From IMG/VR virus record IMGVR_UViG_2778261297_000003: a DNA stretch of 45,246 nt; one strand, written 5' to 3'. Numbering within the stretch: position 1 is the first letter of the stretch; the number at the start of each line of letters is the position of its first letter. The position numbers and the translations under genes were made by a program. Below the pieces are notes generated by a model, which was not told the origin of the DNA, searched no databases, and was given only the letters and a program-made list of their open reading frames with translations. This document shows, piece after piece, positions 1 to 45,246 of this stretch. This DNA is from a virus. Lineage: Duplodnaviria > Heunggongvirae > Uroviricota > Caudoviricetes.

Positions 1-321
1 CTACATTACAGGCGATTTATCGTCTTTAACTTGGTTAAGTGTATGTGTAAGAACGCCGTGTACCGTTACGTCATTCAGAGCTTCCCCTTCTATCGCTTCA
101 CCATCTTCAGTGATCAGCGCGTGGCCCATTAGCTTCACGAACTGGTTTCTCCCGTCCATGCTAACCAGCAGCGTATCCCCTCCTTCTGGCTTCAGACTGA
201 CGTTAATAACGGCCCAGCCGCATGAAGTTTCAATAACCCGGCAGTTGTTATCTACACCGCAGATAACATCTATCGTCATGCGCTGCTCCTGGTAATCCAT
301 GGCTGGCGATGGAAATCCCAT
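1..321 (-). CDS. UmuD'-like protein (S24 LexA/UmuD fold, lacks N-terminal cleavable arm, probably non-catalytic)
   Basis: 106-aa ORF. N-terminus MGFPSPAMDYQEQR matches UmuD starting at the Cys24/Gly25 RecA-mediated cleavage site (UmuD sequence recalled from memory). The position of the GDSM serine nucleophile reads SCGW; a lysine in FVKL is retained. RBS GGGGAGGG lies 7 nt upstream of the ATG. Confidence 0.5.
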   Translation of the reverse strand: MGFPSPAMDYQEQRMTIDVICGVDNNCRVIETSCGWAVINVSLKPEGGDTLLVSMDGRNQFVKLMGHALITEDGEAIEGEALNDVTVHGVLTHTLNQVKDDKSPVM

Positions 322-407
322 TAGAAAACCCTCCCCATGTTTCGCAGGATCCAGTATCGATTCTCACTTCCGTTTGTCGTCTTATCGGCGAAGTCCGGCT
401 GGTACCG

Positions 408-563
408 CTAGATCCATGAATTTGCATCCGCCTGGCTGAAATGCCAGTGCCTCTCCTGCAGTTCAGCGATAAATTTGTCTGTATGCAGGCAGAGATAGCC
501 CTTCGGGTTTTGCTGTATGACCGCAACAAAAGCAGCACGAATATCCGGTTGACGAGGCATGTG
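408..563 (-). CDS. small hypothetical protein (51 aa), SOS-box proximal
   Basis: ATG at 561-563 preceded by a GAGGG RBS; the LexA-box-like palindrome lies about 25 bp upstream. The longer 78-aa track ORF is not supported upstream of this ATG. Confidence 0.4.
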   Translation of the reverse strand, partial: HMPRQPDIRAAFVAVIQQNPKGYLCLHTDKFIAELQERHWHFSQADANSWI

Positions 564-585
564 CGCACCCTCACTCGCTAATTGA

Positions 586-601
586 CTGTATACACATACA
601 G
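586..601. promoter_or_regulatory. LexA operator (SOS box) CTGTATACACATACAG
   Basis: Matches the CTGT-N8-ACAG consensus with an AT-rich spacer; sits between the divergent dinI-like gene and the 51-aa ORF. Confidence 0.65.
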
Positions 602-660
602 TAGTATTTTTATAAAAACAGATCAAGCACAGGCAATTTTTCACTAATGAGAGGATCGGT

Positions 661-927
661 ATGTTTGTTGAACTCGTTTATGACAAGCGTAATGTTGAGG
701 GGCTCGAGGGGGCCAGAGAGATCATACTGGCCGAGCTGACGAAGCGGGTGCACCAGATTTTCCCTGATGCCGAAGTGAAGGTGAAGCCGATGCAGGCGAA
801 CGGCTTGAATAGCGATGCCAGCAAAAGCGATCGTGAAAAACTGAACCACATGCTGGAGGAAATGTTTGAAGAATCCGATATGTGGTTGGTTTCTGAGTTC
901 CCGACTGTTCGCCAAGCCGGGCTGTAA
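661..927 (+). CDS. dinI: DinI-family DNA-damage-inducible protein
   Basis: 88-aa ORF MFVELVYDKRNVEGL...EEMFEESDMWLVSE, typical of prophage DinI homologues; LexA box about 60 bp upstream. Confidence 0.85.
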   Translation: MFVELVYDKRNVEGLEGAREIILAELTKRVHQIFPDAEVKVKPMQANGLNSDASKSDREKLNHMLEEMFEESDMWLVSEFPTVRQAGL

Positions 928-970
928 AATGGTTCAGGCTGCCAGCTTCAATATTCACTGGCGGCCTGCA

Positions 971-1531
971 TTATGTCTTACCACTACCTACCGGAAATTT
1001 TCGGTAGAGTGTTGAAACCCCTACGTCGTAAATTATTGCCACACGCTGGCGAGATTCCCCTGCTGAGATCAATCTCCCTGCCTGCGCCCATTGTTCATCC
1101 GTTAATTTGGGCCTGCGACCGCCGAACCGCCCTTTTGCTCGCGCAGCTGCTAAACCCGCCCGGGTGCGTTCAACAATGAGCTCTCTTTCCATTTCTGCCA
1201 AAGCCCCCATAACATGAAAGAAGAATCGGCCCATCGGCGTAGACGTGTCTATGCTGTCGGTCAGGCTGCGAAAATTAATGCCCCGCTCTCGCAGCTCCTC
1301 CACAAGAACGACAAGATGCCGCATGCTTCTACCGAGCCGATCGAGTTTCCAGACCACCAGCGTGTCTCCCTCCGACAAGATACGGAGTACCTTTTTGAGC
1401 CCCGGCCTCTCCGATGTCTTTCCGCTTATCTTATCTTCAAAAATCAGTTCACATTCTGCGCTATCGAGCGCATTTCTCTGTAATGCGGTGTTCTGGTCAT
1501 TTGTTGACACTCTCACGTAACCAATAAGCAT
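971..1531 (-). CDS. serine recombinase, DNA invertase (Hin/Gin/Pin/Cin family)
   Basis: 186 aa from MLIGYVRVSTNDQN (catalytic Ser motif) with a C-terminal HTH (VGVSTLYRKF); near-colinear with Hin/Gin. RBS AGGGG upstream of ATG at 1529-1531. Confidence 0.9.
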   Translation of the reverse strand: MLIGYVRVSTNDQNTALQRNALDSAECELIFEDKISGKTSERPGLKKVLRILSEGDTLVVWKLDRLGRSMRHLVVLVEELRERGINFRSLTDSIDTSTPMGRFFFHVMGALAEMERELIVERTRAGLAAARAKGRFGGRRPKLTDEQWAQAGRLISAGESRQRVAIIYDVGVSTLYRKFPVGSGKT

Positions 1532-1585
1532 TGTTTTATCCCCTGCAAAAAGCAGAAAGCATGCCACTAGTGAGCAGAATGGTCA

Positions 1586-1611
1586 TTATCAAAAACGTTG
1601 GTTTGGGAGAA
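1586..1611. repeat. inversion crossover site, left (hix/gix-like) TTATCAAAAACGTTGGTTTGGGAGAA
   Basis: 26-bp site resembling hix/gix half-sites, 55 bp upstream of the invertase start; an inverted copy lies inside the tail-fibre gene at 3431-3456. Confidence 0.7.
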
Positions 1612-1932
1612 GCGGCGAAAAGGAATGTGGGGACTGGGGCGAATCAGATACCAGACATGTCAGCTTATTCATCAGGATCTGGCTGGCAAAAATTGCCTGA
1701 TGGTTCAATTGAACAGTGGGGAAGAATTAATTTCCCGACTAACGCCGCGGCGGTATCTACAAATGTGACTTTCCCCATTCCTTTTACGCAGGAGCCAGAC
1801 GTAGTGATTGTATATGACGGCGGTTTTGGTGGTGGGAATATGTGGGGCGCAACTAACTGGACGCGAACAGGATTTGTTGCGCATTGTAACTATGGATTTG
1901 AAGGTGGAGCTTTCTTTGCGAAAGGGCGTTAA
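1612..1932 (+). CDS. alternative tail-fibre C-terminal cassette (currently promoterless/silent)
   Basis: Reading frame continues from the crossover site (..KNVGLGEAAK..) to a stop at 1932; would be fused to the constant fibre N-terminus after inversion. The track ORF start at 1531 is not a real start. Confidence 0.55.
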   Translation, partial: AAKRNVGTGANQIPDMSAYSSGSGWQKLPDGSIEQWGRINFPTNAAAVSTNVTFPIPFTQEPDVVIVYDGGFGGGNMWGATNWTRTGFVAHCNYGFEGGAFFAKGR

Positions 1933-1934
1933 TT

Positions 1935-2375
1935 ATGAAATATTTATATATTGATAATCTGGCGTACCCTTACGCCCTACAGTCTGTTTACGCTGCAAAA
2001 GGGCAATGGCCAGAAGGAAAAGGCGTAGACATAGACGAAGCTATTTTCAGGGAATATTTCCATGACACGCCGCCCGAAGGTAAGCGCAGAATTACCGCAG
2101 GCGACGGAATGCCAGCTTGGGCAGATGTTCCTCCACCAACACGTGAAGAACAAATTGCATCAGCCGAAACTAAAAAGCAGCAATTGATTAACCAGGCCAA
2201 CGAATACATAAACAGTAAACAATGGCCAGGTAAAGCATCAATTGGTCGTCTGAAAGGTGAGGAACTGGCGCAATATAATTTGTGGCTGGATTATCTGGAC
2301 GCACTGGAACTGGTCGATACTTCCGGTGCGCCAGATATTGAATGGTCTACGCCTCCGGCAGTTCAGGCCAGATGA
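1935..2375 (+). CDS. tail fibre assembly protein (alternative copy, Tfa')
   Basis: 146 aa; C-terminal motif YNLWLDYLDALELVDTSGAPDIEW parallels the other Tfa (LNAVLDYIDAVTATDTSTAPDVIW). Confidence 0.75.
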   Translation: MKYLYIDNLAYPYALQSVYAAKGQWPEGKGVDIDEAIFREYFHDTPPEGKRRITAGDGMPAWADVPPPTREEQIASAETKKQQLINQANEYINSKQWPGKASIGRLKGEELAQYNLWLDYLDALELVDTSGAPDIEWSTPPAVQAR

Positions 2376-2949
2376 CGTCCGGCGCTGTGCTGGTATCTGT
2401 TGCCGTCACCGCGTCAATGTAATCCAGCACAGCGTTAAGTCGGGTGTTTTCTGGCTGCGTCAGCTTCCGCCCGGCCTGTAATTTCAGTTGAATCAGACTG
2501 ATGGAAGCCATTGCTGCATTAATCAGTGACTGGCGCTGTGCTTCTGCCGCGTCTAGTGCGGCGCTATGCTGTGCCTCGGTATCCGTCACCCATTTCTCAC
2601 CATCCCATTTATCGTATGGCGTTAATGGGGCGATAGTGGTTGTATTTTCAGGGTAATCACCCGGAACTGTGATTTCTTTGGTATCTCCCGTTTCGGTACT
2701 ATAGACAACTTCACCGCGATGGTCTGGCACATATTCCCATGAATTTAAATCTACAGAGCGACAGATTGCATAACCAGCTTTATGTGTACCTGGTGCATCC
2801 AGACAGGAACATGCCGGGATACCGACGCCGACAGCGAGATATTCAGTTGATGTAGAAATATATTCCCGCGTTTCGCCATCATAGTTATGTACGATGATTT
2901 CCCCATCATTTAAAGCGTAACCGTCTTTTCCCAAAATAGCCTGTTCCAT
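2347..2949 (-). CDS. tail fibre assembly protein (Tfa, active orientation)
   Basis: 200-aa ORF directly downstream of the fibre gene with the conserved Tfa C-terminal motif. Confidence 0.8.
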   Translation of the reverse strand: MEQAILGKDGYALNDGEIIVHNYDGETREYISTSTEYLAVGVGIPACSCLDAPGTHKAGYAICRSVDLNSWEYVPDHRGEVVYSTETGDTKEITVPGDYPENTTTIAPLTPYDKWDGEKWVTDTEAQHSAALDAAEAQRQSLINAAMASISLIQLKLQAGRKLTQPENTRLNAVLDYIDAVTATDTSTAPDVIWPELPEA

Positions 2950-3729
2950 TTATGCAGCCCTCACAATGTAGTTAAATGCAATGTTTCGCGGGCTACCATC
3001 ACCGGCGCCGGAACTGACATGATTGGTTCTATCCATTCGTTTACTGTCATTTGTTGTTCCACTCCCATCCTTCCACGAATACAATAACCCGCCATCGCCA
3101 ATGCTCAACTGCACCGCAAATACGGATGAACCGGATGAATAAACATCTCCAGCCATGAGTGGGTTCCCTGTCCATCCATGCATTTCATGGTTATGTTCAA
3201 GGATAGATGCTGCCTGACTTGAAAGCAGCAGTCTCGCGGAATCAACACCTCGCCCATCATCCCACCCGCGAATAAACTCACCGCGCAAATCCGGTAATTT
3301 TAACTTTGGGTAAGCCTTTGCCAGTTTTGGGTACTCTTCGGCAGAAAAAGGTGCACCGTTGCATTTCAGCCAGCCTGTTGGTGGTGTGGCTGAAGGCCAC
3401 GGAACAGGCACACCAACGGGTAACGCTGAGCCTTCTCCCAAACCAAGGTTTGTGAGAGCCGTAGAAATCGCCGCTGCACCATCTGATTTGATATCGGCAA
3501 ATGGGTTTGCACGGCTCAGTGTGAGTTTTTGAATGGCTTTTAAAACCTGAGTCATATCGTTAATGTCGAGCGCCAATCCTGCTGACTCTACGATATGCGC
3601 TAACTCTTCCTGCATGGCATTAAACGCTGCTGCCCGCAGCCTCGTTGCGGCAATACCACCAGCAACACTTCCATCAGTATATTTGCCATCCTGCGTTGCA
3701 GTGGCTTCGACTTGCCCGATTCGGAGCAT
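2950..3729 (-). CDS. tail fibre protein (constant N-terminus plus invertible C-terminus)
   Basis: 259-aa ORF; the crossover site lies about 93 codons in; GAGGAT RBS upstream of the ATG at 3727-3729. Confidence 0.8.
   Translation of the reverse strand: MLRIGQVEATATQDGKYTDGSVAGGIAATRLRAAAFNAMQEELAHIVESAGLALDINDMTQVLKAIQKLTLSRANPFADIKSDGAAAISTALTNLGLGEGSALPVGVPVPWPSATPPTGWLKCNGAPFSAEEYPKLAKAYPKLKLPDLRGEFIRGWDDGRGVDSARLLLSSQAASILEHNHEMHGWTGNPLMAGDVYSSGSSVFAVQLSIGDGGLLYSWKDGSGTTNDSKRMDRTNHVSSGAGDGSPRNIAFNYIVRAA
3431..3456. repeat. inversion crossover site, right (inverted copy)
   Basis: Reverse complement CTCACAAACCTTGGTTTGGGAGAAGG shares the 19-bp core AAC(N)TTGGTTTGGGAGAAG with the left site; located at the constant/variable junction of the tail-fibre ORF (encodes ...NLGLGEG...). 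Confidence 0.7.
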
Positions 3730-3780
3730 AGTTAATCCTCACTTAGTGTTAAGCGATAAAATCAGAGGGGGAAATATCAG

Positions 3781-4374
3781 TTATGAATAATTGAAAATGA
3801 TGTTCAGATGGGATGGGGCAATTTTGTTGATTGAACACTCCAGTTGTTTATTGCCCCACGATGCGAGCGGATCTCCGCAGTAGGACGCGCCAGCAAGCGA
3901 ATACTTGATCGTTGTTTGTGGCGCATTTATCCGCCAGGTAAATGGCCACTCGTCACCGTTAAGCGCATCACCGCATACTGACATGCCACTCATAGCGGGC
4001 CGGAACTGTGTGATAGTGATGGTATAACCAAGAGCTGCAGCCACCCGGATGTAATAATCGCGGTTCAGGCCGCCGGTGCTGATTAACTTTGCCACCACGG
4101 CGCGCTGGCGATCGCTGACGCCACCGGATTCACCAATCGCACAATCATCTGGTAACCCCAGAGAGCTTTCCCATTCTGACAACATTACCGTCGCTGTAGG
4201 GGGAAAAGCACCAGTAATCAGGCTTTGCGCATCGTTGTCAGAACGCTGAAACGCGCTGCCCAGTGCCCGTAATACCGCAGCCTGTACCGTTTTTTGCGAT
4301 CTGGGCCACGCCCTGCCCGTCGGCAGCAACGCGCCAAGCGCACCGGCATAATCATTTTTTGAAAAGAGGCTCAT
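3781..4374 (-). CDS. tail protein (Mu gp48-like, DUF2313-type)
   Basis: 197-aa ORF in the Mu-like order between baseplate J-like protein and tail fibre. Confidence 0.65.
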   Translation of the reverse strand: MSLFSKNDYAGALGALLPTGRAWPRSQKTVQAAVLRALGSAFQRSDNDAQSLITGAFPPTATVMLSEWESSLGLPDDCAIGESGGVSDRQRAVVAKLISTGGLNRDYYIRVAAALGYTITITQFRPAMSGMSVCGDALNGDEWPFTWRINAPQTTIKYSLAGASYCGDPLASWGNKQLECSINKIAPSHLNIIFNYS

Positions 4375-35697: not shown

Positions 35698-35719
35698 GGC
35701 TAGGTCCTCCCTTCTGTGG

Positions 35720-35935
35720 TTATTTCTGATCGTTAGGCGATGTATTCTTGCCATAACGTTCTGGGTTGAATTCAAGTTCACCAGCAGTTCGATACGCAGC
35801 TTCAGCAGCTCGTCCTTTTGGGATTAAGCGTCCGGGGCGATTACGCCACTGGTAAACGGCCTCACTGGTGATGCCAAAAAATTCGGCTACTTTCTCAGTG
35901 CTGCCGAAATGTTGTTCAATCTCGTCGGTTGTCAT
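35720..35935 (-). CDS. cro: Cro-like repressor
   Basis: 71 aa; HTH ..VAEFFGITSEAVYQWRN..; AAGGAGG RBS; divergent from cI across an operator region. Confidence 0.7.
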   Translation of the reverse strand: MTTDEIEQHFGSTEKVAEFFGITSEAVYQWRNRPGRLIPKGRAAEAAYRTAGELEFNPERYGKNTSPNDQK

Positions 35936-35947
35936 GAAGCCTCCTTA

Positions 35948-36012
35948 GCTAAGTTTAGTTAGATATTAATAACCAATCTAACTTTGGTCAATAAAAACTA
36001 AGATTACTTAGT
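35948..36012. promoter_or_regulatory. OR-like operator cluster between cro and cI
   Basis: GCTAAGTTTAGTTAGAT (35948-35964), ACCAA-N7-TTGGT (35972-35988) and perfect palindrome ACTAAG-ATTA-CTTAGT (35997-36012). Confidence 0.5.
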
Positions 36013-36034
36013 CTTTTTTAAATTTGGTGCTTTC

Positions 36035-36661
36035 ATGGAAACGGTTGGTCAGCGCATTAAAGCCCTACGCAGGGTTACAAAAACCTCTCAAAAAGAACTG
36101 GGTAAGTTCTGCGGGGTTAGTGACGTAGCGGTGGGTTATTGGGAAAAGGATGTGAATATCCCAAACGGGGAATCACTGGTTAAGCTGGCTAAATTCTTCA
36201 ATACATCAATAGATTACATTCTTTACGGCACTGAATTTGAAGGTACCCTCATAACTAAAATGAGGCGTGTGCCCGTGATTTCCTGGGTTCAAGCTGGGCA
36301 GTTTACGGAATGTAAAGCCGCTGATTTATTCAGTGATGTCGATAAATGGGTTGAAACATCACTTCGCATTGGGGATAGCTCGTTCGCTTTAGAGGTCAAA
36401 GGGGATTCAATGACCAATCCAAATGGCCTCCCAACAATCCCTGAAGGGGCAACCGTTATTGTTGATCCAGATGCCGAACCCCTTCATGGCAAGATTGTGG
36501 TTGCGCGTATTGATGGCACTAACGAAGCGACTGTTAAAAAACTTGTCATTGATGGCCCACAAAAATTTTTAGTGCCACTAAATCCTCGCTACCCCAACAT
36601 CCCGATCAATGGTAACTGCCTCATTATCGGCGTTGTTAAAGGCGTTCAGTACGAACTCTAA
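36035..36661 (+). CDS. cI: CI-like repressor (HTH plus S24 LexA-type autopeptidase domain)
   Basis: 208 aa; N-terminal HTH (..SQKELGKFCGVSDVAVGYWEKD..), Ala-Gly cleavage site (VQAGQF), GDSM serine motif and downstream KK lysine. Confidence 0.9.
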   Translation: METVGQRIKALRRVTKTSQKELGKFCGVSDVAVGYWEKDVNIPNGESLVKLAKFFNTSIDYILYGTEFEGTLITKMRRVPVISWVQAGQFTECKAADLFSDVDKWVETSLRIGDSSFALEVKGDSMTNPNGLPTIPEGATVIVDPDAEPLHGKIVVARIDGTNEATVKKLVIDGPQKFLVPLNPRYPNIPINGNCLIIGVVKGVQYEL

Positions 36662-42584: not shown

Positions 42585-42794
42585 ATGGCAAAGCTAATGA
42601 AAGCGAGTCTCTGGAGTAAGCGCGAATTTACCAAAGACTCCATTCCTGACAACCGTACAATTAAACGTTGGGTCGAAAACGGATTACTCATGGGAAGGAT
42701 TGTAGATGGTTCAGTTTTTGTCTATGAAACCGAAAAGTGGGGAGTTGACTCAATTGTTAATCAGGCGGTACGTCAGTTAATAATTGAGGGTTGA
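42585..42794 (+). CDS. xis: excisionase-like protein (putative Xis)
   Basis: About 69 aa from MAKLMKASL (GGAGAAGGA RBS); small basic protein immediately upstream of and overlapping integrase. Confidence 0.5.
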   Translation: MAKLMKASLWSKREFTKDSIPDNRTIKRWVENGLLMGRIVDGSVFVYETEKWGVDSIVNQAVRQLIIEG

Positions 42795-42796
42795 CC

Positions 42797-43978
42797 ATGG
42801 CAGCAAGGCCACGAAAAAAAGAATACCGCCACCTTCCTGATTATCTTTTTTTTGATAAAGATCGTGGCGTGTATAAGTTCACGCTTATAACTGGGAAAAA
42901 GAAAACTCTCGGTTCGGATCGAGTAATGGCTATCGCCATCGCCCGAGAATATAACCTGAGGATGCGCCCTGAAAATACACCATCGATAGATTCATTAATT
43001 CGGGAATCGGGAGGGCTGAATGGTGAAGCCCACCCGTTTTCTGAACATGTTGATCGCATTATGGAGAGAGCGATCAAAGATGAGCAGCCGTCTAAAAGCA
43101 CACTTGACGATTGGAATAATGATGCCATCAGGGTTAAAGAATTTTTTAATAACATACCCGCATGCGATATTGAGCTTGAGCACGTAAATGCCTACATACG
43201 AAATTACCATTCTGAATCGTCGGCCAATGTTCAGAACCGAAAAGTTAGCTTCCTGAAAAAGCTATTCTCTTATGCTGTTGATGAATCGCTAATGATGGAT
43301 AACCCTGCAACACGGAAAAAAATGCGGCGTGTCGATAAAAAGGTCCGCCGGCGACTCACTTTGGAACAGTTCTTGGCCATACATGCAGCTGCTGAACCTT
43401 GGCTGAAGACTGCAATGGACCTTGCCATACAAACTACGCAAGCGCGCCTGGAAGTTTCCCGGATCCGGTACTCGATCAAGGAACCTCAAGAAGGGGTTTG
43501 CGGCTGTGTATGGTTCGATCAGGAGGAGGCTGGCATATTCGGAACGCTTTACATTCACCGGCAAAAAGTGCAGCACAAAGAGGCTTCACACGTCGCTATT
43601 CCGATCGGCAGGGCCCTGAAAGAGATCATCGACAACAGCAGAGACAATGTGGCCAGTCCTTATGTTGTTCACCGGCTTCTGGAAAAGAGAAGCAATCCGA
43701 TAAGTAAGGAAGTTAACCACCCAACACAGGTGGCCCCTGATTATTTGAGCAGGGCATTTTCAGAGCTGCGGGACCGGATAGGTGTAGCGGCAGAATTACC
43801 TATCAAAGAAAGGCCAACTTTCCACGAAATTAGAGCGCTGGCGGCTCATATTTTCGAAAGACAAGGTATCGATCCGCAGGCAAGGATGGCCCATAGTGAT
43901 GCAAAATCGACAAAAATTTATACCCAGAATCATGTTGAATGGGTTGAAGTACCACATGCAGAAATAAAAATGGCATAG
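42797..43978 (+). CDS. int: tyrosine integrase (phage integrase family)
   Basis: About 393 aa; C-terminal catalytic region with HxxR (HEIRALAAH) and Tyr (TKIYTQNH) motifs. Confidence 0.9.
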   Translation: MAARPRKKEYRHLPDYLFFDKDRGVYKFTLITGKKKTLGSDRVMAIAIAREYNLRMRPENTPSIDSLIRESGGLNGEAHPFSEHVDRIMERAIKDEQPSKSTLDDWNNDAIRVKEFFNNIPACDIELEHVNAYIRNYHSESSANVQNRKVSFLKKLFSYAVDESLMMDNPATRKKMRRVDKKVRRRLTLEQFLAIHAAAEPWLKTAMDLAIQTTQARLEVSRIRYSIKEPQEGVCGCVWFDQEEAGIFGTLYIHRQKVQHKEASHVAIPIGRALKEIIDNSRDNVASPYVVHRLLEKRSNPISKEVNHPTQVAPDYLSRAFSELRDRIGVAAELPIKERPTFHEIRALAAHIFERQGIDPQARMAHSDAKSTKIYTQNHVEWVEVPHAEIKMA

Positions 43979-44000
43979 AAAAAGGCACCTGATGGTGCCT
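43977..44000 (-). terminator. terminator-like hairpin next to the int stop
   Basis: Minus strand AGGCACC-ATCA-GGTGCCT followed by TTTTCTAT. Confidence 0.35.
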
Positions 44001-44097
44001 TGAATAAAGTCTTGAATAAGACACCCGAAGGTGCCTTAAGTGGTTCTCTTAGCAACGAACTAAGAACGCCCACGCCTCATACCCATAATCATGAGCA

Positions 44098-44202
44098 TCA
44101 AGGACTTTTGCGGATTTCCCACGTACCTTGCGGTAACGGCAGAAAACCCAACGGAACCCTTTTGGTGCCGCTTTCGAAGCGATAGATTTCAAACTCATTC
44201 AT
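44098..44202 (-). CDS. small ORF (34 aa) with strong RBS
   Basis: AAGGAGGTG RBS 6 nt upstream of the ATG; very short, no supporting family. Confidence 0.2.
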   Translation of the reverse strand: MNEFEIYRFESGTKRVPLGFLPLPQGTWEIRKSP

Positions 44203-44356
44203 GTAACACCTCCTTACCAAGAGAGATTTTTCCCTTGAACATCTTCCCTGAAGGTGTTAGTTTCAGGCTGTCTATTGAAGCTGTTCACGGTGGTGACGCC
44301 TCTCGGATTCATCACCTTAAGACCCCTTGCATTGGTTGGCGCCAAGCAGGGGGTTT

Positions 44357-44878
44357 TTACATTTTGTCTAACTGATATCGTGCGGCCACTAATGATACTC
44401 CGCATGCCTCAGCTACATTTTCAGCACTCATACCTTTCAGAACATTGGCATGAATAGCCGGTACTAATAGCTCACCACTGAAACATTTGGCTTGCCACTC
44501 ACTACTCTCAAAAGGGCGGATTTTTACCCCTGGAGCAGAACGCGCGAAAGCAATGTTCCTGTGCATGAGAAGATGTCCCAGTTCATGTGCGGCAGTCATC
44601 CTGTCACGCCCTACCCCATTCAAAGCACCCTCGTAAATGTCTTCACGAAGAATCAATAAATGTTCCTGTGGGTAGGTGAGACCGTGCGTCTCCCCCATTT
44701 CCTTCATCCCACCGATATGGAGTTCAAAATCTGGGATCAACTGAGGCAATGCGAACTCAATCACCTCCATAACAGGAAACATCAGACCTGTAATACCGAA
44801 GGTGCTCCGCAGAGATCTGACGATAGAACGTATTGATTCGCGGTTCTGCGGGGGTACACGATAATCTTGTCCGCTCAA
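44357..44878 (-). CDS. ImmA/IrrE-family zinc metallopeptidase (DUF955/COG2856-like)
   Basis: 173 aa with HEXXH motif (AAHELGHLLMH). Confidence 0.8.
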   Translation of the reverse strand: MSGQDYRVPPQNRESIRSIVRSLRSTFGITGLMFPVMEVIEFALPQLIPDFELHIGGMKEMGETHGLTYPQEHLLILREDIYEGALNGVGRDRMTAAHELGHLLMHRNIAFARSAPGVKIRPFESSEWQAKCFSGELLVPAIHANVLKGMSAENVAEACGVSLVAARYQLDKM

Positions 44879-44886
44879 AATGCCTC

Positions 44887-45246
44887 CTACTGCTGTTTTC
44901 GATTCAAAATCTGTCGTAAATTCCGGAAGTCTTCTTCATTTAACTCATCAAAACTACGAGCGAACGCAATTGCGACTTCACGAGCATGGTCGTTCTTACC
45001 TGACAAGCTGATCTCTACTGATTGCTGAGAGTCACGAGCTGCACTGATAAGCTTTTCTTTTTGTTTTTCATCCGCATTCAGATAGCCAATGATGCTATCA
45101 AGCACGGGTTTAGTGACCGCCCTTTTACCAGTTTCGATTGCTGAAAGATAAGACGAGGTCATACCCATAGCCTCAGCCATGCTTTTAAGCGTAAGCCCCA
45201 GGTCTATGCGCATTTTTCTTACTGTCTTACCAAACGGCGTTAACAT
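44887..45246 (-). CDS. XRE-family HTH transcriptional regulator
   Basis: 119 aa; HTH ..LGLTLKSMAEAMGMTSSYLSAIETGKR..; start codon at the window edge. Confidence 0.8.
   Translation of the reverse strand: MLTPFGKTVRKMRIDLGLTLKSMAEAMGMTSSYLSAIETGKRAVTKPVLDSIIGYLNADEKQKEKLISAARDSQQSVEISLSGKNDHAREVAIAFARSFDELNEEDFRNLRQILNRKQQ

What the first reader, a model, noticed from the sequence alone, without database searches (positions are those of the whole stretch)
44357..45246. XRE-HTH plus ImmA/IrrE-type metallopeptidase pair next to the integrase, cut by the window edge
An HTH regulator followed by an HEXXH DUF955-type peptidase is the architecture of damage-responsive regulator pairs (ImmR/ImmA, CapH/CapP-like) that often control neighbouring defence or mobile-element operons. 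The pair lies outside the int gene, and the element it controls would be beyond the right edge of the window. It may belong to a second island sharing the integration site.
Basis: partly seen in the sequence, partly recalled or inferred. Interest (0 to 1): 0.5.

Follow-up and report, generated by a model that had tools for sequence, protein, structure and literature searches.

The report
Prophage repressor-protease switch with hidden third gene
The repressor-plus-protease gene pair is real, but it lies inside the prophage, and its likely target is not a neighbouring defence operon but an unannotated, widely conserved 49-residue protein gene behind a folded RNA leader in its own operon.

Summary
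Both genes are real and complete, on the minus strand: XRE-HTH at 45246..44887 and M78/ImmA peptidase at 44878..44357, with an intact HExxH...E site. Only the promoter is cut by the window edge.

The window is 100% identical to E. coli SZQ1. There, 298 bp beyond the edge, lies a 50-bp copy of the proL tRNA 3' end (attR), followed by yejO, narP and ccm. So the pair is cargo inside a lambdoid prophage, between int and attR. There is no second island and no divergent operon.

A conserved palindrome (AATCAACA-N6-TGTTGATT) overlaps the -35 of the pair's own promoter and occurs nowhere else in the prophage.

Downstream on the same strand lie a hairpin, a 125-nt pseudoknotted leader supported by covariation (44320..44196), and a 49-aa basic protein gene (44198..44049). 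This gene is under purifying selection and is not annotated in SZQ1. The trio recurs across Proteobacteria and phages.

The leader plus small gene also follows RelE/HTH, TIR and STAND genes. Neither has a match in Pfam, Rfam or PADLOC.

Best reading: an autorepressed protease/repressor switch whose output is a tightly translation-gated small effector. The effector's function is unknown.

The parts
44887..45246 (-). XRE-family HTH repressor gene (119 aa). The HTH is at the N-terminus and there is a helical C-terminal region of about 55 aa with an invariant F95-A96-R97.
   Evidence: Pfam HTH_31/HTH_3 at about 1e-10. PADLOC capH at 4.6e-10 over residues 2-116. Codon-position substitutions 3/1/8. 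Family alignment of 42 sequences. The stop codon TAG lies inside the peptidase SD, which suggests translational coupling. The promoter and operator lie outside the window: the palindrome AATCAACAGAATTTTGTTGATT is at L001 21422-21443 (window-equivalent 45321-45342), a degenerate second copy is at 45366-45387, and attR is at 45544-45593.
44357..44878 (-). Compact M78 (ImmA/IrrE-type) zinc metallopeptidase gene (173 aa, TTG start).
   Evidence: Pfam Peptidase_M78 at 3.6e-9. PADLOC capP at 1.1e-10. HELGH and E127 align to the active site of CapP 7T5T. H98, E99, H102, H106, E127 and Q129 are invariant in 18 homologues of 42-87% identity. Substitutions 7/3/50 by codon position.
44323..44353 (-). GC-rich hairpin 'T' directly after the peptidase stop codon. 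It has a 6-nt loop, CGCCAA here.
   Evidence: Present after the upstream stop codon in nearly all related loci. The loop is UUGGCG-like or its complement in different loci. It is part of the minimum-free-energy fold on both strands. Its role is unexplained.
44196..44320 (-). Structured leader RNA of the small gene. Helix Pa is at 44316-44292. Its loop (44306-44300) forms a pseudoknot with the tract 44223-44217. Helix Pb encloses hairpin Pc (44286-44237). The SD, AAGGAGGTG, is at 44215-44207. The start region reads ATGnATG.
   Evidence: Only 11 of 158 bases differ from the 91%-identical copy, against 40 of 174 upstream of the HTH gene. In 13 sequences 80.4% of cells are paired, against 38-53% in slid controls, and 21 of 30 pairs show double changes; 0 of 500 shuffles reach the observed value. 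G-U outnumbers A-C 12 to 4 in Pa plus the pseudoknot, which favours the sense strand. Covariance model R1 scores 137 bits here, and its 30 hits in 703 kb all lie directly upstream of the small gene. In the minimum-free-energy fold the SD pairs with the same pyrimidine tract that forms the pseudoknot. No Rfam match.
44049..44198 (-). orf49: a 49-aa, strongly basic (net about +8), beta-rich protein, MSLKSIASKAAPKGFRWVFCRYRKVRGKSAKVLDAHDYGYEAWAFLVRC. It is not annotated in strain SZQ1.
   Evidence: Substitutions 2/1/13 by codon position against the 91%-identical copy, whereas the overlapping 34-aa frame gives 7/2/1. phrog_33859 at 1.5e-26. 105 species-level genomic loci and 111 clusters at 50% identity, all small stand-alone proteins. 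AlphaFold2 pLDDT 90 with four beta strands. No hit in Pfam, NCBIfam, PADLOC, PDB or BFVD.
43982..44001 (.). Hairpin terminator between the convergent int gene and the cassette.
   Evidence: The terminator scan finds it on the minus strand: AAGGCACCATCAGGTGCCTT followed by TTTCTATG. It sits 3 bases after the int stop codon and 47 bases after the orf49 stop codon.

Best explanation
The pair is the sensor and regulator half of a self-contained three-gene cargo cassette. The cassette occupies window 44015 to about 45420 in window-equivalent coordinates. A lambdoid prophage integrated in tRNA-Pro (proL) carries it between int and its attachment site.

Proposed mechanism:
1. The HTH protein binds a palindromic operator that overlaps the -35 of the cassette's sigma-70 promoter. 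This represses the HTH-peptidase-leader-orf49 transcript.
2. On a signal, the M78 peptidase cleaves the HTH protein in its C-terminal oligomerisation helix, near the invariant F-A-R. By analogy the signal would be DNA damage, single-stranded DNA or infection.
3. Transcription rises. Translation of the last gene, orf49, is gated separately by its leader. A pyrimidine tract can pair either with the SD (off) or with the loop of helix Pa as a pseudoknot (on).
4. The 49-aa basic beta-protein is the output. It most likely acts on a conserved cellular target or nucleic acid, as a growth-arresting or conflict effector.

Shown here: the genes and their integrity, the location inside the prophage, the operator and promoter architecture, the conserved synteny, the RNA structure, and that orf49 is coding.

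Inferred: repression by the HTH protein, its cleavage by the peptidase, the nature of the signal, co-transcription of orf49, and what orf49 does.
For: Location:
- The window is 100% identical to E. coli SZQ1.
- The intact tRNA-Pro lies 1.2 kb left of the window, and a 50-bp copy of its 3' end lies 298 bp beyond the HTH start, followed by host genes.
- There is no third att copy.

Module:
- About 1.4 kb (window 44015 to 45420-equivalent) is 89.5% identical to copies in another E. coli prophage.
- The same trio lies between int and the element end in Yersinia, and in the nin region of an Aeromonas prophage.

Operator:
- AATCAAC-N7-GTTGATT is conserved 80-100 nt upstream of the HTH start in 8 of the 13 loci examined, from 6 genera including Pseudoalteromonas. 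Vibrio and Photobacterium carry a variant palindrome, AAACCA-N-TGGTTT.
- Its right half, TTGATT, lies 16-17 nt from a -10-like hexamer.
- There are two copies at this promoter and none in the 45-kb window.

Protease:
- Catalytic residues are invariant.
- Homology to CapP and CapH.
- Published cleavage paradigms for CapH/CapP and ImmR/ImmA (bioRxiv 10.1101/2022.04.27.489752).

Output gene:
- orf49 is under purifying selection.
- It lies 100-225 nt downstream of this peptidase subfamily in 46 of 80 species-representative genomes. The same holds in 19 of 21 viral contigs whose peptidase is at least 45% identical.
- It stays 78% identical where the HTH protein is 36% and the peptidase 44% identical.
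- A divergent 44-aa version follows the pair in gut phages.

Leader.

Precedent: Makarova et al. 2009 predicted that Xre-COG2856 pairs regulate a third component.
Against: - No experiment supports binding, cleavage or co-transcription.
- The hairpin after the peptidase stop could terminate transcription. In that case orf49 would need its own promoter; none was recognisable, and the promoter scan found 0 sites.
- The peptidase lacks the GAF domain that CapP and IrrE use in sensing, so the signal cannot be transferred by homology.
- The leader plus orf49 also occurs behind unrelated genes: RelE/HTH, TIR, a STAND ATPase, a class II ribonucleotide reductase and two unknown families. It is therefore a separable unit.
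- orf49 has no detectable similarity to any toxin or effector, and it is not hydrophobic like type I toxins.
Confidence: 0.55

Rival explanations
1. The cassette is an extra induction pathway for the prophage, independent of SOS. On this reading orf49 is a small antirepressor that inactivates the prophage's CI, as in the transcription factor-smORF modules of Silpe et al., with the XRE/peptidase pair supplying the sensory input.
For: Phage-borne XRE regulators next to unannotated 52-60-aa ORFs have been shown to work this way (bioRxiv 10.1101/2022.09.16.508337). The cassette sits in prophages in E. coli, Yersinia and Aeromonas.
Against: - Those smORFs are phage-specific (about 11% identity between modules) and are transcribed divergently from an activator.
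- orf49 is 60-100% identical across phages and hosts with unrelated immunity regions.
- orf49 also follows TIR, STAND and ribonucleotide reductase genes on contigs where no phage genes were evident within the roughly 4-5 kb flanks examined, and a RelE/HTH pair within a P2-like prophage.
- This prophage has its own LexA-family CI and Cro.
- An IS1 insertion truncates orf49 in one strain while the pair stays intact.
Confidence: 0.13
2. The leader plus orf49 is an independent selfish or regulatory unit. It could be, for example, an RNA-gated small toxin resembling a type I toxin-antitoxin locus, perhaps with an antisense RNA ending at hairpin T. On this reading it merely tends to lodge downstream of toxin-antitoxin-like genes, and the HTH/peptidase pair does not control it.
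For: - The unit occurs with at least six different upstream gene types at the same spacing of about 135-235 nt.
- Hairpin T reads as a terminator on the antisense strand, and its loop occurs in both orientations, UUGG being a YUNR-type loop.
- The antisense strand folds with z = -4.9.
Against: - No promoter is recognisable for either strand.
- G-U versus A-C counts favour the sense strand.
- The protein is soluble and basic, not a membrane peptide.
- Association with this one peptidase subfamily is tight: 19 of 21 in phages and 46 of 80 in genomes.
Confidence: 0.17
3. The pair is a plain two-gene type II toxin-antitoxin system, with an Xre antitoxin and a zinc-peptidase toxin, and has no further regulatory target.
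For: Makarova et al. listed Xre-COG2856 as a candidate toxin-antitoxin system. A Brucella ZnMP/HTH-Xre pair has been treated as one. The genes are tightly coupled, with the HTH stop codon inside the peptidase SD.
Against: - Conserved third gene and leader.
- COG2856 proteins were not toxic when over-expressed in S. pneumoniae or E. coli (PMC4257102).
- Characterised relatives (ImmA, IrrE, CapP) are repressor-cleaving proteases.
Confidence: 0.08
4. One reading: a CapH/CapP-like pair controls a divergently transcribed defence operon or a second island to the right of the window.
For: Profile similarity to capH and capP. In Yersinia, other integrase-bearing islands with defence-like genes do abut the promoter side of the cassette.
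Against: - In the identical genome, the right flank holds the operator and promoter, attR, the proL terminator, then yejO, narP and ccm.
- There are only two att copies.
- The peptidase has 173 aa and no GAF domain.
- The operator is absent elsewhere.
Confidence: 0.03

Closest known systems
ImmR/ImmA of Bacillus subtilis ICEBs1 and phage phi105 (XRE repressor plus COG2856 anti-repressor protease)
   Same: Separate small XRE repressor and a single-domain M78 peptidase of about 170 aa in one operon, next to int on a mobile element. The HExxH...E site is intact.
   Different: ImmR controls the element's excision and transfer genes. Here the operator is found only at the cassette's own promoter, the prophage has its own CI/Cro switch, and a conserved 49-aa gene with a structured leader follows the peptidase.
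CapH/CapP regulators of CBASS and other immune operons (Lau et al. 2022; Calloji et al. 2026)
   Same: Best profile and PDB matches. The HTH protein has an HTH plus a C-terminal helical region of CapH size.
   Different: CapH/CapP genes are divergent from an immune operon. CapP has about 290 aa (peptidase, HTH and GAF domains, often with a cysteine-switch loop) and is activated by ssDNA bound in an inter-domain groove. Here there is no divergent operon, no GAF domain and no cysteine between HExxH and E127.
DdrO/IrrE (PprI) of Deinococcus
   Same: An XRE repressor inactivated by an M78 protease that cuts its C-terminal dimerisation domain.
   Different: That system is a chromosomal regulon of DNA-repair genes, its genes are not in one operon, and IrrE has a GAF domain.
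Predicted three-component Xre-COG2856 toxin-antitoxin systems (Makarova, Wolf and Koonin 2009)
   Same: The logic is the same: the protease/repressor pair regulates a third, effector gene in the same operon on mobile elements.
   Different: The third components described there are RelE or PIN toxins, usually with a fused HTH-peptidase. Here the genes are separate and the third gene is an uncharacterised 49-aa protein behind a pseudoknotted leader.
Phage transcription factor-smORF induction modules (Silpe et al. 2022/2023)
   Same: A phage-borne XRE-type regulator next to an unannotated small ORF of about 50 aa.
   Different: In those modules the genes are divergent, the transcription factor is an activator, there is no protease, and the smORFs are phage-specific antirepressors with almost no conservation.
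RosmerTA (RmrA is a fused XRE-M78 protein)
   Same: Weak profile matches of both proteins to RmrA models.
   Different: RmrA is one protein of 360-400 aa, paired with an RmrT toxin. No RmrT-like gene is present here.

Membership tests
ImmR/ImmA-type repressor/anti-repressor protease pair | XRE-family HTH protein encoded next to the peptidase, on the same strand | tested here: met
   Pfam HTH_31/HTH_3 at about 1e-10. There is an 8-nt gap, and the HTH stop codon lies in the peptidase SD.
ImmR/ImmA-type repressor/anti-repressor protease pair | M78/COG2856 domain with HExxH and a downstream Glu ligand | tested here: met
   PF06114 at 3.6e-9. H98, E99, H102 and E127 are invariant and align to the CapP active site.
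ImmR/ImmA-type repressor/anti-repressor protease pair | The repressor controls the host element's excision, transfer or lytic genes | tested here: not met
   The candidate operator occurs only at the cassette's promoter and 0 times in window 1-45246. The prophage has its own CI/Cro. This is a computational test only.
ImmR/ImmA-type repressor/anti-repressor protease pair | The peptidase cleaves the repressor on a signal | not testable with these tools
   Only a conserved candidate site is available: the invariant F95-A96-R97 in the C-terminal helix.
CapH/CapP | Gene pair divergent from, and sharing a promoter region with, an immune operon | tested here: not met
   Upstream of the HTH gene lie 298 bp, attR, and then yejO, narP and ccm.
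CapH/CapP | CapP has peptidase, HTH and GAF domains (about 290 aa) with an ssDNA-binding inter-domain groove | tested here: not met
   The protein has 173 aa. Only residues 81-141 align to 7T5T, and the capP profile is matched only at positions 56-147 of 242.
CapH/CapP | CapH has an N-terminal HTH plus a C-terminal oligomerisation domain that is cleaved | tested here: inconclusive
   The capH profile is matched at positions 4-97 of 103, at 4.6e-10. Oligomerisation and cleavage were not tested.
Xre-COG2856 type II/three-component toxin-antitoxin system | A toxic component neutralised by the Xre partner | not testable with these tools
   The literature reports tested COG2856 proteins as non-toxic. 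Toxicity of orf49 is unknown. An IS1-truncated orf49 is tolerated.
RosmerTA | Fused XRE-M78 RmrA plus an RmrT toxin | tested here: not met
   The genes are separate. RmrA matches are weak and partial, and orf49 has no PADLOC hit.
Type I toxin-antitoxin locus | Small hydrophobic membrane toxin plus a cis-antisense RNA | tested here: not met
   orf49 has 11 K/R against 3 D/E, no hydrophobic span, and a predicted beta-sheet. The existence of an antisense RNA is unresolved.
Any Rfam 15 RNA family (riboswitch or leader) | Match to a curated covariance model | tested here: not met
   No hit at gathering score. At E<=10 the matches were only marginal, all far below their gathering scores and none of them to the leader fold, for either leader class.

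The most novel reading that the evidence does not exclude
The 49-aa protein with its pseudoknotted leader may be a previously undescribed output module that is widespread on mobile elements. It would plug into several different stress or infection sensors: the XRE/M78 switch, a HigBA-like toxin-antitoxin pair, TIR proteins and STAND NTPases. The leader would be a new class of translational switch that responds to a signal not yet known. On this reading, the trio in this window is the commonest form of a new family of phage/host conflict systems.
Probability: 0.3. Interest if true: 0.8.

Novelty: new variant of a known kind. Interest (0 to 1): 0.6.

Why it matters
XRE/M78 pairs are among the commonest unexplained gene pairs on phages and islands, and what they regulate is usually unknown.

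Here comparative evidence identifies a concrete, testable output. It is a very conserved 44-49-aa protein that most annotation pipelines miss, translated from a leader whose pseudoknot competes with sequestration of the ribosome-binding site.

If the small protein is the effector, this would give substance to the 2009 prediction of three-component Xre-COG2856 systems. It would also add a new small-protein family and a new structured RNA to the phage-conflict repertoire.

For this particular finding, the work corrects the expected target. Nothing of interest lies beyond the window edge.

Tried and rejected
- tRNA and Rfam scans of the window: nothing found. The att site lies outside the window.
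- A third att copy between int and the pair, to test for tandem islands: none.
- PADLOC, PHROGs and NCBIfam on orf49 and on the overlapping 34-aa frame: only an unknown-function PHROG for orf49. The 34-aa frame was rejected as coding, because its substitutions run 7/2/1 by codon position and it is closed after 9 codons in Aeromonas.
- Rfam at permissive thresholds on both leader classes: only marginal matches far below gathering score, none to the leader fold.
- Profile search for orf49 fused to known domains: none found.
- Consensus promoter scan of the cassette: 0 sites. By eye I found no convincing promoter for orf49 or for an antisense RNA, so I do not claim either.
- RNAalifold on raw MAFFT alignments recovered only part of the structure, so helices were defined by hand and then tested.
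- Literature searches for a described XRE/M78/small-ORF trio found none. This does not prove it is undescribed.
Full report
**1. The observation**

The region 44357-45246 holds two complete ORFs on the minus strand.
- The HTH gene is 45246..44887 (119 aa). It matches Pfam HTH_31 and HTH_3 at about 1e-10.
- The peptidase gene is 44878..44357 (173 aa). It matches Peptidase_M78 at 3.6e-9.
- The peptidase starts at a TTG four bases after an AGGAGG. That AGGAGG contains the HTH stop codon, so the two genes look translationally coupled.
- Against a 91%-identical copy elsewhere in E. coli, substitutions fall on third codon positions: 3/1/8 for the HTH gene and 7/3/50 for the peptidase.
- H98, E99, H102 and E127 are invariant in 18 homologues down to 42% identity. 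They align with the active site of CapP (PDB 7T5T).

The pair is therefore real and very probably functional. The HTH ATG is the last three bases of the window, so only the regulatory region is cut off.

**2. Where it sits**

The window is 100% identical to E. coli SZQ1, NZ_CP173996.1.
- The annotated record shows a lambdoid prophage. It has a LexA-family CI, Cro, Q, lysis genes, terminase, tail genes and J.
- The prophage is integrated in tRNA-Pro proL, which lies 1.2 kb left of the window start.
- A 50-bp copy of the tRNA 3' end lies at L001 21645-21694, which is window-equivalent 45544-45593. That is 298 bp beyond the HTH start codon.
- The copy is followed by the native proL terminator and then by yejO (pseudogene), narP, ccm and nap.
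- No further copy of the att core exists in the window or in the 41-kb locus.

The pair is therefore inside the prophage, between int (42791..43978, +) and attR. It is transcribed away from attR towards int.

**3. It is a portable cassette**

- About 1.4 kb, from window 44015 to window-equivalent 45420, is 89.5% identical to a segment at the end of a different E. coli prophage. There it lies next to dinI, GIY-YIG and tail genes.
- Only 13 of 5426 complete E. coli genomes carry the cassette.
- In Yersinia the same genes lie between a different type of integrase and the element end. In Aeromonas they lie in the nin region of a prophage.

**4. A third gene**

- The conserved segment extends 340 bp past the peptidase. 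It contains a 49-aa ORF at 44198..44049 that is not annotated in SZQ1.
- Its 16 substitutions against the 91% copy are distributed 2/1/13 by codon position, with only two amino-acid changes. The overlapping 34-aa frame shows 7/2/1.
- It matches phrog_33859, a family of unknown function, at 1.5e-26.
- The protein is strongly basic. AlphaFold2 predicts a small four-stranded beta structure with pLDDT 90.
- It has no match in Pfam, NCBIfam, PADLOC, PDB or BFVD.
- A profile search of 1.84 billion representative proteins found 111 clusters. All are small stand-alone proteins with no fusions to known domains.
- A hairpin terminator follows the ORF at 44001..43982.

**5. The trio is conserved**

- A scan of one genome per species found 105 loci encoding the small protein. 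They are in gamma-, beta- and alphaproteobacteria, with a few in other phyla.
- In 46 of the 80 loci fetched, a member of this compact peptidase subfamily lies directly upstream on the same strand. The gap is 100-225 nt, and an HTH gene of about 117-135 aa precedes the peptidase.
- Among viral contigs, 19 of 21 loci with a peptidase at least 45% identical have the small gene 150-180 nt downstream.
- More distant gut-phage versions carry a divergent 44-aa homologue at the same spacing.
- The small protein is the most conserved part. In locus L013 it is 78% identical, while the HTH protein is 36% and the peptidase 44% identical.

**6. The promoter and operator**

These lie beyond the window edge.
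- The palindrome AATCAAC-N7-GTTGATT lies 80-100 nt upstream of the HTH start codon. It is conserved in 8 of the 13 loci examined, from 6 genera including Pseudoalteromonas. Vibrio and Photobacterium carry a variant palindrome, AAACCA-N-TGGTTT.
- Its right half, TTGATT, sits 16-17 nt upstream of a -10-like hexamer.
- In SZQ1 there is a perfect copy and a degenerate copy 45 bp apart, at window-equivalent 45321-45342 and 45366-45387. There are no copies in the 45-kb window.

This is the architecture of an autorepressed promoter. It also argues that the HTH protein has no other target in the prophage.

**7. The leader RNA**

- The 158 nt between the peptidase stop and the orf49 start differ at only 11 positions from the 91% copy. 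The region upstream of the HTH gene differs at 40 of 174 positions.
- The segment begins with a GC-rich hairpin, here called T (44353..44323).
- Next comes helix Pa. Its loop (CCGAGAG, 44306..44300) is complementary to the tract CUCUUGG (44223..44217), which lies immediately 5' of the SD.
- A longer helix Pb encloses hairpin Pc.
- On 13 sequences, 80.4% of cells are paired, against 38-53% when partners are slid. Of 30 pairs, 21 show changes on both sides, and 0 of 500 shuffles reach the observed covariation. Pa is 94.5% paired and the pseudoknot 89.9%.
- The pseudoknot co-varies: CCAAAAG with CUUUUGG, CUGAGAG with CUCUCAG, CUAAGAG with CUCUUAG, and CUCGGGA with UCCCGAG.
- G-U pairs outnumber A-C 12 to 4 in Pa plus the pseudoknot, which favours the sense strand.
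- In the minimum-free-energy fold without the pseudoknot, the same pyrimidine tract pairs with the SD. The two states are therefore mutually exclusive, as in a translational switch.
- A covariance model of this leader scores 137 bits at 44196-44320 (-). It finds 30 hits in 703 kb of related loci, every one directly upstream of the small gene on its strand.
- A second leader class has the same logic with different sequences. A GGGAAGC internal loop pairs with a GCUUCCC hairpin loop. The 7-bp complement is perfect in 17 of 19 sequences, against 24% in cross-pairings, and there are at least seven compensatory variants.
- Rfam 15 has no matching family.

**8. The leader plus small gene is separable**

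The same unit follows other upstream genes:
- a RelE/ParE toxin plus HTH antitoxin in a P2-like E. coli prophage, in the cargo region between plasmid-partition-type genes (ParM) and the portal gene;
- a TIR-domain protein beside a tRNA;
- a STAND-type ATPase;
- a class II ribonucleotide reductase;
- two unknown families of about 190 aa and about 250 aa.

Downstream neighbours vary and are often a convergent integrase-sized ORF. In one E. coli strain an IS1 truncates orf49 while the pair stays intact.

**9. Interpretation**

Section 9 is interpretation; sections 1-8 are results.

The best-supported reading is a three-part cargo cassette.
- An autorepressed promoter drives the HTH gene, the peptidase gene and, by read-through of hairpin T, the leader and orf49.
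- By analogy with ImmR/ImmA, DdrO/IrrE and CapH/CapP, the peptidase would cleave the HTH protein in its C-terminal helix. F95-A96-R97 is invariant there. CapH is cut at F82|R83.
- Transcription would then rise, and the leader adds a second, translational gate.
- Such multi-layer gating, the extreme conservation of the small protein and its company (toxin-antitoxin, TIR and STAND genes) fit an effector acting on a conserved target. Its activity is nevertheless unknown.
- This matches the three-component Xre-COG2856 systems predicted by Makarova et al. 2009, with a new kind of third component.

The signal cannot be inferred by homology, because the peptidase lacks the GAF domain and the inter-domain ssDNA groove of CapP.

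**10. Rivals**

- An SOS-independent induction module with orf49 as antirepressor (Silpe et al.). This is disfavoured by the conservation of orf49 across unrelated phages and by its occurrence on contigs where no phage genes were evident in the flanks examined.
- An independent RNA-gated small-gene unit that the pair does not control. This remains possible because the unit is separable and hairpin T looks like a terminator.
- A plain two-gene toxin-antitoxin system. This is disfavoured by the conserved third gene and by published non-toxicity of COG2856 proteins.
The flanking sequence refutes it.

**11. Verdict**

The pair is a new member of the ImmA/ImmR-like kind. The conserved, unannotated 49-aa gene and its pseudoknotted leader make the whole cassette a new variant that deserves experimental follow-up. 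I found no description of this trio, of the small protein family or of the leader in the libraries and papers searched. That is not proof of novelty.

Noticed in passing
Related loci L014, L035, L039, L047, L052, L054, L058, L063, L067, L073, L079, L084, L088, L092-L095 (about 130 nt upstream of the small gene): There is a second class of leader RNA. It has the conserved motifs GGAAUGG..CCCACU and UAGUGGAUUCC. An internal loop pairs with a downstream hairpin loop, giving a 7-bp pseudoknot with many compensatory variants. It goes with upstream partners other than the HTH/peptidase pair, and it has no Rfam match.
   Followed up: partly
window 44323-44353 (minus strand) and the equivalent position in nearly all related loci: The hairpin after the upstream stop codon has a 6-nt loop. 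In different loci the loop is UUGGCG-like or its exact complement CGCCAA-like, so the same DNA hairpin occurs in both orientations. On the window's plus strand it reads as a stem followed by TTTTT. Its function is unexplained.
   Followed up: partly
window 44196-44202 (minus strand): The start region has the conserved form ATGnATG. The first ATG sits at the ideal distance from the SD but is out of frame, and its frame is not conserved. The second ATG starts orf49. The first may act as a decoy start.
   Followed up: partly
L176 4994-6098 (E. coli IGC_RcoliRes_1.1, P2-like prophage): A RelE/ParE-family toxin (133 aa) and an HTH antitoxin (105 aa) are followed by a 165-nt leader and an orf49 homologue. 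They lie in the cargo region between plasmid-partition-type genes (ParM) and the portal gene. The small gene is unannotated there too.
   Followed up: partly
L014 3826-5431 and L030: The small gene also follows a 338-364-aa protein with a CAP12/Pycsar-type TIR domain, right next to a tRNA gene and secG. In another genome it follows a 405-aa STAND/AAA ATPase. Both partners are defence-type proteins.
   Followed up: partly
L009-L012 (Yersinia), 1-4200: On the promoter side of the cassette lie different islands in different strains. Each has its own P4-type integrase and genes resembling defence genes: AAA_15/AAA_21, SIR2 plus HerA-like, or RES. Tandem islands at one site therefore do occur in Yersinia, though not in this window's genome.
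   Followed up: no
L003 11288-12205 (E. coli WP5-S17-ESBL-11): An IS1 insertion truncates orf49 after about 22 codons while the HTH and peptidase genes remain intact. Loss of the small gene is therefore tolerated.
   Followed up: no
window-equivalent about 45250-45300 (L001 21350-21400) and the same place in related loci: A hairpin lies in the 5' UTR of the HTH mRNA, between the -10 and the SD. Its structure is conserved but its sequence is not, for example AGACCC...GGGTCT here.
   Followed up: no
window 35700-36646: This is the prophage's own immunity region: a LexA-family (S24) CI-type repressor (35993-36646, +) divergent from a Cro/CI-family gene (35700-35897, -). The prophage therefore already has a classical SOS-responsive switch.
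   Followed up: partly
window 1-1855 and just left of the window (L004 23269-25576): At the far end of the prophage are two oppositely oriented tail-fibre assembly genes next to a serine recombinase (invertase) gene, followed by dinI. This suggests an invertible host-range segment.
   Followed up: no
L001 21794-24385 (right of the window): The first host gene beyond attR, the autotransporter gene yejO, is annotated as a pseudogene with an internal stop.
   Followed up: no
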